From Brachybacterium sillae (GTDB lineage: Bacteria > Actinomycetota > Actinomycetes > Actinomycetales > Dermabacteraceae), in the NCBI RefSeq assembly GCF_025028335.1, contig NZ_JAFEUW010000001.1, forward strand, positions 682,001-746,000: a stretch of 64,000 bases of DNA, read 5' to 3'. Each line of letters starts with the position of its first letter. The stretch's first letter is position 1. Position numbers: made by a program. This document shows positions 48,201 to 57,200 of the stretch, piece after piece.

Positions 48201-51200
48201 GCAATTCGCCGCTCCGCTCCGGTGCCTCAGATCACATGATCCTCGGCGGTGGCAGGTGAGGGATTCGAACCCCCGTAGGCAATGCCAGCTGATTTACAGT
48301 CAGCCCCCTTTGGCCACTCGGGTAACCTGCCGGGTGCGGGATCCGGCATCCCCTCTCGAGGCCGCCGAACCGACTCAGCGAGCATACCGGCTCGCCGCGA
48401 GGAGCGCGAACCGGGGCGGGGGTCTGCCCGCATGAGGCTGATCACAGGGCCGAGTGGTGGCATCCGCCGCCGCACCACCGATCCGCCTCCCGGTATCCCG
48501 CACGCCGCGGGTGTCCGCTCGTCGGACCCCACGGGGTCCCATCCGACCGTCCGACCACCAGCGGCTCCTCCCCTGGAGCCCGACCCGAGGAGACCACACC
48601 CATGGCCGATTCGTCCTTCGACATCGTCAGCAAGCTCGACCGCCAGGAGGTCGACAACGCGGTCAACCAGGCTGCGAAGGAGGTGGCCCAGCGCTACGAC
48701 TTCCGCAATGTCGACGCCAGCATCGCCCTGTCGGGCGATCAGATCGTCATGGAGGCGAACTCCGAGGAGCGAGTGCTGGCGGTGCTGGATGTGCTGCAGT
48801 CCAAGGTGCTGCGCCGTGGCCTGTCGCTCAAGAGCCTCGAGGTGGGTGATCCCAAGCAGTCCGGGAAGATCGTGCGGCTGGTCGCCGACCTCAAGGAGGG
48901 GATCTCCTCCGAGGAGGCCAAGAAGATCTCCAAGATCATCCGCGACGAGGGCCCCAAGGGTGTGAAGGCGCAGATCCAGGGTGACGAGCTGCGGGTGAGC
49001 TCCAAGAGCCGCGATGATCTGCAGGCCGTGATCGCCCTCATCAAGGGCAAGGACCTCGACACGGCGGTCCAGTTCGTCAACTACCGCTGAGGTCGAGAGG
49101 ACCGACCTCCCCTGCTTACCACGACGGCCCGCCCGGAATCCCGGGCGGGCCGTCGGAGCGTTCGCGGCGGGTCGGTGTCAGGTGCCTCGATCCCGTGCGG
49201 TGCGTCAGCCGTTCTGCGAGGTGTCGTCCTGCTCGGTCGCGTGCCGCTCGAGGGTCTGACCGAAGGTGGTGAACGCCTCGACCAGCTTGGCGACATCACC
49301 GTTGACGAAAGCGCCCCAGTCCTCCTTGTAGGTGTCGGCGTCGGGACCGACCCACTGCACACCCTCCACGATCTGGGTCAGGCCCTGGATCGCCTCGCTC
49401 ACTCGATCGCCGGCCTGGGTGACCTTGGTGGCAACATCGTGGCCGTCCTCAGCCACCATTCCCTGGAAGTCGTTCATGTCCGTGTCCTCTCTGGTTCGCA
49501 GGATGTCTGGTGGGTGGATCAGGCGCCGGCCGAGGAGGCCTGGCGCTGCGCCTGGGCGTTCTGGCGGGCACGCTCGGCGGTCTCACCGAGCTTGCCCTCG
49601 ATGGCCTGCACGGCTGCACCGATCTGGGCCTCGAAGTCGGCCACGTACTTGTCGCGGTCCTGGCCGGTCCAGTCCAGACCGTCCACCTGGCCCTTGACCT
49701 CCGTGTAGATGGTCCGGATCTCCTGGGCCTTGTTCTCCATCTCTCCAGCCATCTTGTCGACGTCCTCGGGGACCATGCCCTTCTTCGCCATGACGCTTCC
49801 CTTCCTCTCGCGTGTCCGGTGACGGGTGTCGGGGGGCGTCCGGTGACGCCGGAACCCCGGCCCCCGGGGAGCCAGTACCGTGCCCTGTGGGCTCGATCAC
49901 CGCCGTCCCGGGGTGTGCCATCACAGTAACCACGGGGGCGGAAGGGTGACCATGGGGACAACTCCCCATGTGGATCGTCCTCCCTCCACAGGGAGACGCC
50001 CGTCTGCCCACCGCACCCGCCGCCCCGCCGGCCGGGCGCCGCAGATACCACGAGCCCGGCACCGCGGTGGCGGTGCCGGGCTCGGCCAGGTGGGGCCGAT
50101 CGCCCCGGGGGTCACTGCGCAGAGGTGTCTTCCTGCTGCTTGGCGTTGGACCGCGCGCTCTGCTCCAGCTCCTCGACGGCCGCCGCGATCTGCTCCAGCG
50201 CGGGGACCATCTCCCCACTCCACTGCGAGCGGAACTGATCGGCGTCGGGCCCGGTCCAGTCCACAGCGTCCAGACCCGAGGTCAGCTCATGCGAGATCCG
50301 GCGCACCTCCTCGGCGGCGGAGTTCAGCTCATCGGCCATCCGGCGCACTTCCGCCACGTTCATGCCCTGGGCGTTCATACCGCTCATGAAGGGCCTCCTC
50401 CTCGGTCTCGGCGATCGGCATCGTCACTGTATCCAGCCGACTCCCGGCTGCCCATGGGGAGAGGTCCCCATGGGGATGCCCTCTCCTCCACAGTCACCGC
50501 CGACCGCCCGCCCTCACTGCTGCGGCAGGGCGACCTGCAGCTTCAGCGCCCGCCCGGAGGCCACCAGGAAGCCGCGCCCCGGTGGGAAATCGGTGCGGCG
50601 CACGCGGCCCAGGGGCGTCCCCAGCAGGGAATCCCCCTCCATGTCACTGGGCTGCAGGATGATCCCGCGCCGGCCGGACTTGAAGGGCTGGGCGAGGGTG
50701 TACGCCTGGTTCCAGGTGGCGGCGTCGTTCTCCCCCACCACGAACTGGCCCTCCCGCACCGCGGTGCGGATCAACCGGTCCAGGTCCTTCTCCGCTTCGG
50801 TGCCGGTGAAGTCGGCGACGCCGTCGACCACGAGGGCCAGGGCGCCTTCGGGCACGCTCCCGTTCTCCAGGGTCGCGCGCAGCTCCGCCGCCAGCTGCCG
50901 CACCCGCTCCGCGTCGGAGGCCTCCACATCCCACACATCGAGCCCCGTGAGCGGGGTGGGCCGGGAGGAGAACCGGACCAGTCGCGGCGGGTTCCCGCTG
51001 CGACGCAGCGCCTGGGCGATGGTGTGGACAGTGGTGGTGCGACCCGACCCCATCGGGCCGGTGACCATGAAGGCCCCGCGTGGATCCAGGGCGATCTCCG
51101 CCAGGGTCTCGTCGGCCACCCCGATCGTCGGTCGCCCACCGACGGTGGGCTGCAGACGCGCCAGCTCCACCCGCTCCGGCAGGCGCGCGATCTCCGGCGC

Positions 51201-54200: not shown

Positions 54201-57200
54201 GAACATGAGCGCGCCCATGATCAGCGGCGCGACCATCATGAAGATCGGGAAGAACTGCGGGGCGGGTTCCTTCGGCGGCACCGGCGCCGGCATCGGCCGG
54301 TACGGGAAGCGGGGCACCACGCGCGGCGACCGGTTGAACTCCACCACCGGGGACGAGGGCGCCGCCCCGCCGAGGCGGTGCAGCAGCACCACCGCGAAGG
54401 TGGTGCCACCGATGCGCACCGTGTCGGCGGGCCCCAGGGCGGCACGCTGCACCCGCTCCCCCGCGATCTCCACCCCGTGGGTGGAGCGGATGTCGACCAC
54501 CTCCACCACGTCGGTGACGTTGATGCGGGCGTGGCGCTGCGACAGTTCGGGATCGGCGATGCGCACATCCGCCTCGGGGGCCCGGCCGATCACGGAGGAA
54601 CCGCTGGGAAGAGGGAACTCCCGCCCCGCTGCGGGTCCGGACAGCACCCGCAGCAGCGCGACAGCGGGGCCGCGCCCCTCTCCCCCCGCGGTGAACCGTT
54701 CACCGGAGCGGGCGATCGAGATGATGCTGCCGGATCGCAGACCGGCTTCGATGAGGTCCGCATCACGGTCGAGGCTGCGCACCCCGCGCGCCCCCTCACC
54801 GGCCCCGGGATCCTGCACCTGCAGGGTGAGTCCCTCGGGGGCCTCGGTGCGGCGCCGCATCGGGTCGGCGAGGTACAGCGCCGAGGCGACATCCCCCACG
54901 GTGGCGGTGGCATCGGCGGTGACCTCGAGGTCGGTCAACCGGTCCTCGGGGCGGCGCAGGGTCAGCTTGATGCGCATGCGGGTGTTCTCCGGGCGGGGCG
55001 GGGGCGGTCGGGATCAGTGCTCATGGTGCTCATGGGGCCGGGGTCGATGGGCCGCGGCCGGGGATCAGTCGTCGTCGTTCTCCTGCGCGGAACTGTCCAG
55101 CAGGGGCAGGTCCTCCGCCGTCACCAGGCGGGAGAACACCGCGTGCTCGACGAGCCGGGCGCGACGATTGCTGGCGAGCTTGCCGGGCCCACCGCGCAGT
55201 CCCCGCACCCCCATGCGATCGAGTTTGTCGCAGACGTTGTCGAGCTTGCGGTTGAACTTCGTGCGGGGCCAGCCGAGGCGCTCGGCGGCCTGGGCGGAGG
55301 TCGGGACGGCGCTCATCCCCGTGCCCTCCCGCAGCAGCATCGGCTCGGCGAGCGCCAGGATCAGCAGTTTCTGACTGAGGGTGAGCGGCACCGCCCCGAC
55401 CGTGGAGTCCCCGGCGGGCTGGTCCTCGCTGGGGATCGGCTGGAACTGGGCGGACTCCGCGTGGATCGCAAGGTCGTAGGTGGTGGGGCCTGCGGTGAAC
55501 ACCACCCGGGTCTCGGGGAACACCAGGGGGATGCGTGCCTCCGGTGCGAGCCACGCCTGCATGGTGCCGTCGGCGTCGGTGACGGTGGCGGACAGCCGGC
55601 TGCCGATGTTCACCAGCCACCACATGCTCTCGACCTGCACGACGGTGAGGAAGCGGCGGTGGAGGAACTGGTTGTCAGCGTCGATACTCAGGTCGGCGTC
55701 CCGTCCGATGACGAGCTCGTCACCGGGGTCGACCCGGTACCACTCGCCGCAGTACTCCACGGTGATGCTCGACGCCACGCTGGCTCCTTCTGCACTCGGG
55801 CGGGGATGCCGCCCCGGATGCGCTCACCCGACGGTGAGGCACGTCTCCTGGGGGTCGCTGGACTGGCCGTCCTCCGTCACGACGGTGGCGTCGAGGCAGA
55901 CGGAGGAGATACCGGATGGTTGCTCGATCACCATCGCACGGCGTCCCCTCACCGGCTCCAGGTTCTCGAACCGGTCGTACCCCTCAGGCAGGTCCTGCCA
56001 CGCCAGCTGCACCGCATCGGTCTCCCGGAAGTCGGTCGCCGGGGTCCATTCCACCAGGATCAGCGCCGGGTCCACGCCCTCCTGCGGCCGGATCTGGGTG
56101 AGCTGCAGGTCGGACACCGCTGCGGGCTGTCGCCCGATGAGGATCGGGCCGCGGTCGTCCCCGGTGCCGGTGTCGGCCTCGGGCAGCAGGGTGCGGGCCG
56201 AGAGCACGGAGCCGGTGGCCACGGCACCCACCAGCAGCACCGCGGCGAGGAGTCCGACCCAGGCGGGCAGACGACGACGGGGGCGCGATTCCCCCGGCGG
56301 AGCCGCGGGATCGGCATCGGTCGGCGACGCCCCACCGTCGTGGCGGCGCGGGGCGGTCGCGACACCCTCGGCGCCCGCGGCCTGGGGGCCGGCCGCGAGG
56401 CTGCCAGCCCCTGGGGAGGTGTGCTCGGTGGCGACGGTGCGGGTGCCGCTCACGGTGGGGCGGGAGAACTCCAGGGCCGGCGCCACCCCGGCGAAGGGAT
56501 CGTCCTCCATCCCTCCCCCGCTGGTGCCGTCCGGCAGGGTGAGGGCGCGGATGCGGGTGTGCTGCTCGAGCTCGTCGGCGGGCCCCTCCCCCGGTTCGGC
56601 ATCGTCACCGGTCTGAAGGGTGCCGAGCCGTTCGTCCAGGACGTCCACCGCGGTGACCGGCAGCGCGAGCATCCGCTCGATCTGCTGCAGCGCGCGACCC
56701 AGCGTCAGAGCAGAGGAGTACCGACCCATCGGGTCCTTCGCCATGGCCGTGGACAGCACCCGCATCAGTTCCGCCGGCACGTCCGGGCGGTTGATCGGAG
56801 GCACCGGTTCGGTGGCGATGCGGCGCATCAACTCGGAGACGCTGTTGCGTCCGCCGGGTTCCTCGAACGGGGTGCGGCCGGCCAGCAGGGAGTACAGCGT
56901 GGCCCCGAGGGAGAAGACATCACTGCGGACATCGGCGGTGGGCGGGTCGGAGAAGTACTCCGGGGGCGCCCAGGGCACCGACAGACCGGCGTTCTCGGCG
57001 GCCTCCGGGGTGGCGGTGGTGGCGATGGAGATGCCGAAATCCGTGAGCGCCGGACGACGGTACTCGGTGACCAGGATGTTCGCCGGCTTGATGTCGCGAT
57101 GGAGGATGCCGGCACGGTGGGCGGTCTCCACCGCTCCGGCGAGCTGCACCCCCGTGCGCAGCACCTCCGCGACGGAGATGCGTTCCCGGCGGAACCGGAC

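What a model noticed while it worked through the whole genome (the two positions that open the first line are those of the whole stretch)
49952..55778. Palindromic promoter element ATGGGGA-N4-TCCCCAT defines an Esx (type VII) regulon; FHA-HTH gene in the Esr/Esx locus is [...]
An 18-bp palindrome precedes the WXG100 genes of the Esx locus (731952, 732454) and the scattered effector, EspG and immunity loci (834236, 1161144, 1583945, 1607551, 2620823, 2617207, 1528798), plus two cell-wall genes (350457 CHAP, 1688446). It ends 21-23 nt before a -10-like hexamer in most, the lux-box position. g00641 (737065-737778), an unannotated FHA plus LuxR-type helix-turn-helix protein inside the kinase/FHA (Esr) cluster, is the candidate activator that links phosphosignalling to Esx transcription.
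Evidence so far: The 12 best matrix hits are all intergenic; 9 precede WXG100, effector or orphan immunity-like loci. Perfect copies in 52 of 54 Brachybacterium genomes (1-15 each), reversed control 0; G007 (99% complete) lacks both motif and g641. Among 60 order genomes the motif is in 10 of 20 with a g641 homologue and 0 of 40 without, often 5-10 kb from the gene. Model of g641 (pLDDT 78, call 158): residues 1-110 FHA (Z 10.2), residues 128-222 match DegU, ChrA, TraR HTH domains (Z 7.9-8.5, rmsd 1.6-3.0; call 171).
(Added by a program. Inside this text positions count along the whole contig: contig position 682,001 is position 1 of the stretch shown here. "Call 12" and the like, gene names such as g00115 and contig names such as C1 are that model's own, and its searches are not shown. 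The text may have been shortened before it was handed on; [...] marks where a part breaks off. The agent that wrote the report below was given it as the finding of a first reader that could run no searches.)

Follow-up and report, generated by a model that had tools for sequence, protein, structure and literature searches.

The report
Esx secretion regulon and its activator
An 18-base DNA palindrome sits at a fixed distance before the predicted promoters of type VII (Esx) secretion substrates in many Actinobacteria, and a neighbouring gene with a predicted DNA-binding fold likely binds it to switch them on, which would give the Esr threat-sensing system a transcriptional output in the lineages that carry this gene.

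Summary
Confirmed. ATGGGGA-N4-TCCCCAT has 8 perfect copies in this genome and none at other spacers. It lies 22 or 23 nt before TAnnnT (26 hits at 34 unselected sites, 0.3 expected) and shares its last base with a weak -35, the position of a LuxR-type activator site. Its targets are mostly WXG100 genes, WXG100-fused effectors and esr genes. The gene at 55065-55778 folds as FHA plus LuxR/GerE helix-turn-helix. The motif follows this gene, not the Esr core: 52 of 63 genomes with both, 0 of 35 with Esr but no gene, 0 of 5 with the same EccC but no gene. The 'pheS' site looks like an orphaned effector promoter. Limits: binding is untested; the FHA lacks canonical phosphothreonine residues; 15 of 70 gene carriers lack sites; G251 has a site without the gene. 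The Esr preprint's table already lists such genes as EsrG, twice with a LuxR-HTH label. Genomes with the Schaalia-type Esr1 locus lack gene and motif, so this is probably not the missing link in that model organism. New variant of a known kind (nearest: EspM). Interest 0.68.

The parts
49952..49969 (.). Operator 1, ATGGGGA-CAAC-TCCCCAT; faces the minus strand, 161 nt before the WXG100 gene ending at 49791
49947..49952 (-). Degenerate -35-like hexamer TGGTCA, sharing its first base with the operator
   Evidence: T-Y-G-M-C bias after the motif; inferred role
49923..49928 (-). -10-like hexamer TACTGT, 23 nt after operator 1
50454..50471 (.). Operator 2, ATGGGGA-GAGG-TCCCCAT; between the eccC stop and the first WXG100 gene (67 nt before its start)
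50449..50454 (-). Degenerate -35-like hexamer TGGGCA
   Evidence: inferred role
50426..50431 (-). -10-like hexamer TACAGT, 22 nt after operator 2
50112..50387 (-). WXG100 gene 1 (91 aa), target of operator 2
   Evidence: Pfam WXG100 E 4e-6
49519..49791 (-). WXG100 gene 2 (90 aa), target of operator 1
   Evidence: Pfam WXG100 E 4e-7
49205..49477 (-). WXG100-like gene 3 (90 aa), likely co-transcribed with gene 2
   Evidence: TIGR03930 E 3e-4, below cut-off
50514..54977 (-). EccC/EssC-type ATPase with N-terminal FHA (1487 aa); no operator upstream in this genome
55065..55778 (-). Candidate activator (237 aa): FHA-fold 1-110, low-confidence Thr-bearing linker about 111-127, LuxR/GerE-type HTH 128-222
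55824..57506 (-). Ser/Thr kinase (EsrE), directly upstream of the activator gene
   Evidence: Pkinase E 5e-38; HRDIKPAN motif
57503..59854 (-). EsrG-type protein, long low-complexity middle and C-terminal FHA (783 aa)
   Evidence: FHA 713-772; preprint Table S3 naming of the same position
59851..60741 (-). PP2C phosphatase (EsrF)
60738..62423 (-). Zn-ribbon + RDD + FHA protein (second EsrG type)
62427..64000 (-). Transglutaminase-like EsrD; runs past the window end, followed upstream by DUF58-like EsrC, MoxR EsrB and 2080-aa EsrA (C1:746853-755432)

Best explanation
The palindrome ATGGGGA-N4-TCCCCAT lies 22 or 23 bases before a -10-like hexamer in front of WXG100 and effector genes and is likely the binding site of a dimeric activator, predicted to be the FHA plus LuxR-type helix-turn-helix protein encoded at 55065-55778, which would recruit the housekeeping RNA polymerase to these weak promoters. 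Shown: the sites, their spacing, their target genes and the joint occurrence of gene and motif. Predicted: the two-domain fold. Inferred: (1) the last T of the palindrome is the first base of a weak -35 (T-Y-G-M-C) with a 17-18 nt spacer, putting the dyad near -43.5, close to the lux box at -42.5; (2) a dimer binds the two half-sites and contacts sigma region 4; (3) scattered effector cassettes join the regulon because each carries its own operator; (4) in some lineages operators before esrF and esrA add positive feedback; (5) about even odds only: the adjacent Esr kinase and phosphatase gate the activator, through phosphorylation of its linker Thr (T126 here) or through its altered FHA pocket binding a phosphorylated EsrG. 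The confidence given is for operator plus activator; step 5 is about 0.5 on top of that.
For: Spacer-specific enrichment. TAnnnT at gap 22 (18 hits) or 23 (8 hits) for 34 sites not chosen by a -10, at most 1 hit at any other gap, 0.33 expected from 0.0024 per position. The promoter-proximal half-site is better kept: 9 against 24 mismatches in 23 imperfect sites. 31 of 78 oriented sites in other genomes' loci have a WXG100-family Pfam hit in the first gene; in 9 the first recognised gene is esrF and in 6 esrA. HTH model: the top 21 structural matches are LuxR/NarL/GerE proteins (Z 8.4 DegU, 7.9 TraR, 7.8 GerE; rmsd 1.8-2.2); the recognition helix R177, K178, L179, D180 is 81-95% conserved in 98 diverse homologues. 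Co-occurrence in 200 order genomes: 55 of 70 with the gene, 1 of 130 without; among EsrB-positive genomes 52 of 63 against 0 of 35. Five gene-negative genomes with the orthologous EccC have no site at up to 1 mismatch. One of them, G169, has lost kinase and gene and keeps a half-decayed operator before its first WXG100 gene. Genus g58: 2 of 2 with the gene have a site, 0 of 3 without. Other orders: 4 of 5 carriers have sites, and all 7 lie within 27 kb of the gene. Distant homologues G393 and G453 sit by WXG100/EccC with 2-mismatch sites at the same spacing.
Against: No binding, expression or start-site data. 15 of 70 gene carriers have no match to either pattern, although the recognition helix is nearly the same in them; four of these have a 1-mismatch site near the gene. 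Sites without the gene: G251 (perfect, 99% complete, one contig), G091 and G108 (relaxed pattern), G085 (weak), G569 (6 sites, 74% complete). With the relaxed pattern in family f3, 27 of 45 carriers match but so do 7 of 76 non-carriers (control 6 of 121). Three of 9 WXG100-domain loci in this genome have no site, nor do eccC or esrA. Three sites precede secreted cell-wall enzymes, not Esx genes. No Pfam or NCBIfam hit for the protein; 3 of 98 homologues have any HTH hit; Z-scores are middling. On step 5: canonical FHA Ser, His and Asn are replaced; G095 (17 sites) and G087 (5) have no kinase motif beside the gene; the motif is in 34 of 42 loci with an adjacent kinase and 8 of 15 without. EmbR, the textbook case, was not found phosphorylated in vivo in normal growth (PMC9239209). 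Kin genomes are not independent.
Confidence: 0.72

Rival explanations
1. Same operator and same activator, but not gated by phosphorylation: the degenerate FHA acts as a dimerisation or protein-binding surface, or the protein is constitutive. This is a variant within the best explanation, not an alternative to it.
For: Ser to His, His to hydrophobic/Gly, Asn lost against Rv1747 FHA-1. G095, G087, G134, G119 keep sites with no kinase motif within 3.5 kb upstream. EspM's FHA half appears to support oligomerisation (PMC7002343 passages).
Against: The gene follows an intact kinase in 42 of 57 loci. R26, N36, H40 and R41 are 88-96% conserved, and 97 of 98 homologues have a Thr in the linker. Carriers that lost kinase and EsrB (G056, G139, G090) have no or decayed sites at their WXG100 genes.
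Confidence: 0.33
2. The protein binds the palindrome as a repressor, like EspM, blocking the -35 until a signal removes it.
For: The site overlaps the -35 position. EspM, an FHA plus HTH protein beside ESX-1, represses whiB6 (PMC7002343).
Against: A repressor does not need a two-value spacing (22 or 23 nt) held across orders, nor a better-kept proximal half-site; the -35 is weak, as at activator-dependent promoters. This argument rests on general promoter knowledge.
Confidence: 0.1
3. Another factor (a different regulator or an alternative sigma factor) binds the palindrome, and the FHA-HTH gene only travels with it.
For: G251, G091 and G108 have sites without the gene; a second clade of the gene (PP2C-gene-kinase order; G002, G245, G266, G213) has no sites nearby. 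I did not screen all genes of all genomes for an equally good match to the motif's distribution.
Against: 0 of 35 EsrB-positive, gene-negative genomes, four of them with the PP2C-EsrG-kinase-EsrA cassette lacking just this gene (G102, G149, G178, G192). In other orders all sites cluster around the gene. A dyad plus an ordinary TAnnnT does not suit an alternative sigma factor (general knowledge).
Confidence: 0.1
4. The palindrome is an RNA hairpin, terminator or small mobile repeat, not a protein site.
For: Perfect 7-bp arms with a 4-nt loop; operator 2 lies about 40 nt after the eccC stop.
Against: The first and last spacer bases pair in 21 of 37 perfect sites, about the 20 expected from their separate frequencies (expectation by hand). 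Mismatches are one-sided, not compensated. The flanks are unrelated between sites, and the element lies upstream of the -10, so it would not be transcribed.
Confidence: 0.03

Closest known systems
Esr pathway and EsrG (Wang et al. 2026 preprint, PMC13622651)
   Same: The locus has EsrA-G and adjoins eccC and WXG100 genes. [quoted passage not shown] The paper states that how EsrG phosphorylation changes transcription is unknown.
   Different: The main text never mentions HTH, DNA-binding or a motif and points to zinc fingers instead. The Schaalia Esr1 loci in the tables have no such gene and that Esx is of the EccB/EccD type, whereas this one is an FHA-fused EssC type.
EspM (MMAR_5438/Rv3863; PMC7002343)
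   Same: N-terminal FHA, C-terminal HTH that binds DNA, encoded beside an ESX locus, controls ESX substrate expression.
   Different: EspM is 363 aa, a repressor acting through whiB6. This protein is 237 aa, has no match to the EspM model NF052403 at E<=0.1, and its sites lie directly at substrate promoters in activator position.
LuxR/NarL/GerE activators and the lux box
   Same: Four-helix HTH fold; an inverted repeat centred near -43 (lux box: 20 bp at -42.5, PMC3376562 passage).
   Different: The input domain is an FHA fold rather than a receiver or autoinducer domain; there is a Gly/Arg-rich insert after the recognition helix; no sequence-level GerE hit.
EmbR (SARP family; PMC9239209)
   Same: A transcription factor with an FHA domain encoded next to a Ser/Thr kinase.
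   Different: EmbR has a winged helix, a BTAD and a C-terminal FHA; different fold order and targets.

Membership tests
LuxR/GerE-type HTH | Four-helix HTH fold | tested here: met
   Top 21 matches are of this family, Z up to 8.4, rmsd about 2, 63-70 residues. Predicted model, middling Z.
LuxR/GerE-type HTH | Sequence match to Pfam GerE | tested here: not met
   0 of 98 homologues hit GerE at E<=0.01. The preprint's own profile gave LuxR-HTH for two table rows; an Atlas neighbour cluster at 0.89 has GerE in 32%.
LuxR/GerE-type HTH | Binds an inverted repeat as a dimer | not testable with these tools
   No binding assay; the complex predictor was not available.
FHA domain | Beta-sandwich FHA fold | tested here: met
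   Z 10.5, rmsd 2.6 over 93 residues to Rv1747 FHA-1; Foldseek E 6e-4.
FHA domain | Canonical phosphothreonine pocket (Gly-Arg, Ser-x-x-His, Asn) | tested here: not met
   G25-R26 and R41 kept; Ser is His (88 of 98), His is Leu/Phe/Val then Gly/Leu, Asn absent. Distant homologues keep the Ser. The residue list is recalled.
EspM family | Match to NF052403 | tested here: not met
   No NCBIfam hit at E<=0.1.
EspM family | FHA then HTH, beside an ESX locus | tested here: met
Esr pathway locus | EsrA, B, C, D, E, F, G all present | tested here: met
   same layout as the B. muris rows of Table S3.
EsrG (preprint's usage) | FHA-containing protein in an Esr locus | tested here: met
EsrG (preprint's usage) | Phosphorylated on Thr when an epibiont is sensed | not testable with these tools
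   Linker Thr present in 97 of 98 homologues; phosphorylation unknown.
Class II activator site | Fixed position abutting the -35 | tested here: met
   Gap 22 or 23 nt to TAnnnT; G at 85% two bases after the motif. Start sites not mapped.
SARP/EmbR | Winged helix plus BTAD plus C-terminal FHA | tested here: not met
   Only EmbR's FHA aligns (residues 1-109); the protein is too short for a BTAD.

The most novel reading that the evidence does not exclude
This protein is the DNA-binding output of Esr threat sensing in EssC-type loci across Actinomycetes: EsrA senses a cell-surface attacker, the adjacent kinase flips the FHA-HTH dimer, and one operator switches on the secretion substrates, scattered effectors, orphan lipoproteins and cell-wall enzymes together. 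Effector cassettes move with their own operator and plug into the regulon on arrival, so the motif is a sequence key for finding Esx effectors that have no recognisable domain.
Probability: 0.38. Interest if true: 0.85.

Novelty: new variant of a known kind. Interest (0 to 1): 0.68.

Why it matters
The Esr preprint names the step from EsrG phosphorylation to transcription as unresolved. This gives a concrete protein, an operator and a promoter geometry for the branch of Esr loci that carry the gene (63 of 98 EsrB-positive genomes sampled), all testable by gel shift, deletion and reporter. It also shows that the studied Schaalia-type Esr1 probably uses a different route. The motif defines Esx regulons from sequence alone and flags candidate effectors and accessory genes with no Pfam match.

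Tried and rejected
No RNA holder was listed for the locus; this is no evidence either way. The complex predictor was not available, so dimer formation was not modelled. A search for covariation between recognition helix and motif found none to use: the helix is nearly invariant, also in genomes without sites. PP2C was too widespread to mark Esr loci (200 of 201) and was replaced by EsrB at E<=1e-95, which may include a few ordinary MoxR genes (G004, G075, G158, G190). A 2-mismatch search in five site-less carriers gave counts near the control. Sequence search of solved structures gave no significant hit (best E 0.26). Literature: searches found no report of the motif or of this regulator; one search listed 15 of 534 papers, all unrelated. 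Earlier scan findings: none. Fisher tests are not relied on, because kin are not independent.
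Full report
1. Observation. The window holds two perfect copies of ATGGGGA-N4-TCCCCAT, at 49952 and 50454. The genome (G000; window = C1:682001-746000) has 8 perfect and 5 one-mismatch sites at spacer 4, against 0 perfect and at most 1 one-mismatch site at each other spacer from 0 to 12; reversed and swapped controls give 0. A matrix trained on 59 sites from other genomes ranks 13 sites far above the rest (22.7-32.0, next 16.1; control maxima 19.2 and 18.7); 12 are intergenic by my gene calls and one lies in a gene's 3' end. 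52 of 54 same-genus genomes have 1-15 perfect copies, control 0. The genus name Brachybacterium comes from the finding and from the top protein hits.

2. Promoter geometry. For 34 sites taken from neighbourhoods of the gene without regard to a -10, TAnnnT occurs at gap 22 (18 hits) or 23 (8 hits) and at most once at any other gap up to 49; the intergenic rate of 0.0024 per position predicts 0.33. In G000, 10 of 13 sites have TAnnnT at these gaps, one has CAnnnT, two have neither. In 52 oriented sites the bases from the last T read T, C/T, G (85%), A/C, C (part of this set was chosen with a -10 pattern). I read this as a weak -35 (consensus TTGACA, recalled) with a 17-18 nt spacer. That places the dyad near -43.5; the lux box is a 20-bp inverted repeat at -42.5 (PMC3376562, passages). 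Among 23 imperfect sites chosen symmetrically, the promoter-distal half has 24 mismatches and the proximal half 9. The outer spacer bases are C or G but pair in only 21 of 37 sites, as independence predicts, which argues against an RNA hairpin. In lower-GC genomes the sixth base relaxes (ATGGGNA-N4-TNCCCAT).

3. Targets. In G000 sites precede two WXG100 transcripts in the window, five scattered WXG100-fused loci (834236, 1161144, 1583945, 1607551, 2620823), small genes without Pfam hits (2617207, 1528798) and three secreted cell-wall proteins: CHAP (350457), peptidoglycan-binding (1688446) and glucosaminidase plus Golvesin (2190326). At 834236 the TAnnnT faces the divergent gene. Three of 9 WXG100-domain loci have no site (C1:2147709, 2166399-2168752, 1575185), nor do eccC or esrA. 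In loci from other genomes, 31 of 78 oriented sites have a WXG100-family hit at E<=0.01 in the first gene (hand count); the first recognised gene is esrF for 9 and esrA for 6. These loci were chosen near the gene or at pattern hits, so the fractions are not genome-wide. The pheS site: in G021 the same intergenic space holds a site, a TAGCCT hexamer and a WXG-type effector gene (the WXG reading is by eye, no Pfam hit); G107 has the site and a short relic start; G154, G183 and G123 have none. The G000 copy lies further from pheS and lacks a -10. It is most likely a left-over effector promoter.

4. The protein. 237 aa, no Pfam or NCBIfam hit, 4028 relatives in one search, 874 clusters at 50% identity. 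The model (pLDDT 78.8) matches FHA domains over 1-110 (Z 10.5, rmsd 2.6) and DegU, ChrA, TraR and GerE over 128-222 (Z 8.1-8.8). The C-terminal part folded alone (pLDDT 74.4, no alignment) has LuxR/NarL/GerE proteins in the top 21 ranks. These Z values are middling, but the family is consistent. In 98 diverse homologues the helix F-N-R-K-L-D is 75-95% conserved, G25, R26, N36, H40 and R41 are 88-98, and 97 have a linker Thr. Against Rv1747 FHA-1 the canonical Ser is His and the canonical His and Asn are lost, so ordinary phosphothreonine binding is doubtful. The linker consensus G-E-T-T resembles the GarA/OdhI phosphorylation motif (recalled, not tested).

5. Does the motif follow this gene? 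In one sample of 200 order genomes, 70 have a strong homologue (two weak hits, G066 and G162, were counted as negative). The perfect motif is in 41, all carriers; a motif-plus-TAnnnT pattern is in 51, of which 50 are carriers. Either pattern: 55 of 70 against 1 of 130. Among EsrB-positive genomes: 52 of 63 with the gene, 0 of 35 without. G102, G149, G178 and G192 keep PP2C-EsrG-kinase-EsrA and lack just this gene and the motif (20 regions examined, 0 sites at up to 1 mismatch). Because such genomes might simply lack targets, I searched 41 gene-negative genomes for EccC: five have the full orthologue, none has a site at up to 1 mismatch, and four of them rechecked with a wider profile have no real homologue (G074). 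G169, of the same genus, has lost kinase and gene but keeps eccC and WXG100 genes, with GTGGGGAGGACTCGCGTG, a half-decayed operator, after eccC. Outside the order, 6 of the class sample's genomes have strong orthologues; of 5 tested, 4 have sites and all 7 sites lie within 27 kb of the gene; the fifth has a 1-mismatch site 120 nt from it. G393 and G453 carry distant homologues with the canonical Ser beside WXG100, EccC, kinase and MoxR, each with a 2-mismatch site at gap 23 or 22.

6. Against. 15 of 70 carriers match neither pattern; four have a 1-mismatch site near the gene (G033, G094, G187, G193), the rest do not, and their helix is nearly unchanged. A second clade with PP2C-gene-kinase order has no nearby sites. 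In family f3 the relaxed pattern hits 27 of 45 carriers and 7 of 76 non-carriers, control 6 of 121 (hand count). G251 has a perfect site and no homologue at E<=1; G091 and G108 have relaxed sites. G569 has 6 sites and no gene but is 74% complete. An intact kinase motif lies just upstream in 42 of 57 loci; the motif is in 34 of those and in 8 of the 15 without, including G095 with 17 sites. So the kinase link is weak. Kin genomes are not independent.

7. What is known. The locus is an Esr/Esx locus in the sense of Wang et al. 2026 (PMC13622651). I read the abstract, introduction, results, discussion and main figure legends, passages, parts 1, 7, 8 of Table S1, parts 144, 185, 189, 248 of Table S3, and searches of Tables S1, S3, S4. 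Table S3 is held cut, and the figures and supplementary PDF could not be read; Fig. 4E's 13 EsrG architectures may include FHA+LuxR-HTH. The paper says it has not determined how EsrG phosphorylation changes transcription and has no mention of HTH or a motif in the main text. [quoted passage not shown] The architecture was thus machine-labelled, without comment. The Schaalia Esr1 loci have no such gene. G258 has the same order, clpC-esrABCDEFG-ppdK; it and G235 and G300 have EccB-type Esx and lack gene and motif, while G124 and G281 of that genus carry an extra EssC-type locus with both. The finding therefore fits one branch of Esr, probably not the studied one. EspM is the nearest functional analogue: FHA plus HTH, beside ESX-1, a repressor (PMC7002343, passages). 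EmbR is the kinase-linked FHA factor (PMC9239209, passages). Searches found no report of the motif.

8. Verdict. The operator and its Esx-centred regulon are real with high probability (about 0.9). That this protein is the activator: about 0.72. That the Esr kinase gates it: about even beyond that. New variant of a known kind; interest 0.68.

Noticed in passing
window 47963-48331 (-): tRNA-Met, tRNA-Thr and tRNA-Tyr lie about 900 nt beyond the last WXG100 gene, with one 162-aa gene between.
   Followed up: no
C1:2352907, 2339800, 2361636, 1792636, 2357191 (outside window): Five identical copies of ACCGGGACATGTCCCCAG with TATTCT at gap 22; weak matrix score (10.6); probably the end of a repeated element.
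   Followed up: no
C1:1606207-1607460 (-), L201: The WXG100-fused gene behind the 1607551 site is frameshifted near its start, yet the operator is perfect.
   Followed up: partly
C1:1954262: Weak site (score 13.1) with TGGTCA and TACAGT at gap 22, before a 131-aa gene without Pfam hit; a possible 14th member.
   Followed up: partly
C1:1528798, L199: Perfect site without a -10 at 22-23 nt; a CACACT lies 33 nt away (one helical turn further) towards a gene with a lipoprotein-like start; a transposase gene lies about 240 nt on the other side.
   Followed up: partly
L031, L149, L150, L151, L153, L155, L163: A second arrangement, PP2C-gene(-kinase), in family f3, sometimes as a second copy; no nearby operator. 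It may have another regulon.
   Followed up: partly
L237, L239, L240, L241: Distant FHA-HTH homologues (E about 1e-16) in 7-9 Mb genomes lie beside kinases without Esx hits; G529 has two kinase-gene pairs in tandem.
   Followed up: no
P0250: A 612-aa protein carries the whole domain pair at residues 386-611, a possible fusion.
   Followed up: no
L209:8754 (G251): Perfect operator with CAGGAT at gap 22 in a complete genome with no homologue and no EccC orthologue; possibly a relic or an imported cassette.
   Followed up: partly
L247 / L129:10598 (G074): 2-mismatch site between PP2C and eccC in a gene-negative genome whose congener G231 has the gene; possible decay after loss.
   Followed up: no
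L079, L083, L084, L085: In family f21 the operator precedes a conserved 157-191 aa gene (weak LpqN-like hit in one) placed before esrF.
   Followed up: no
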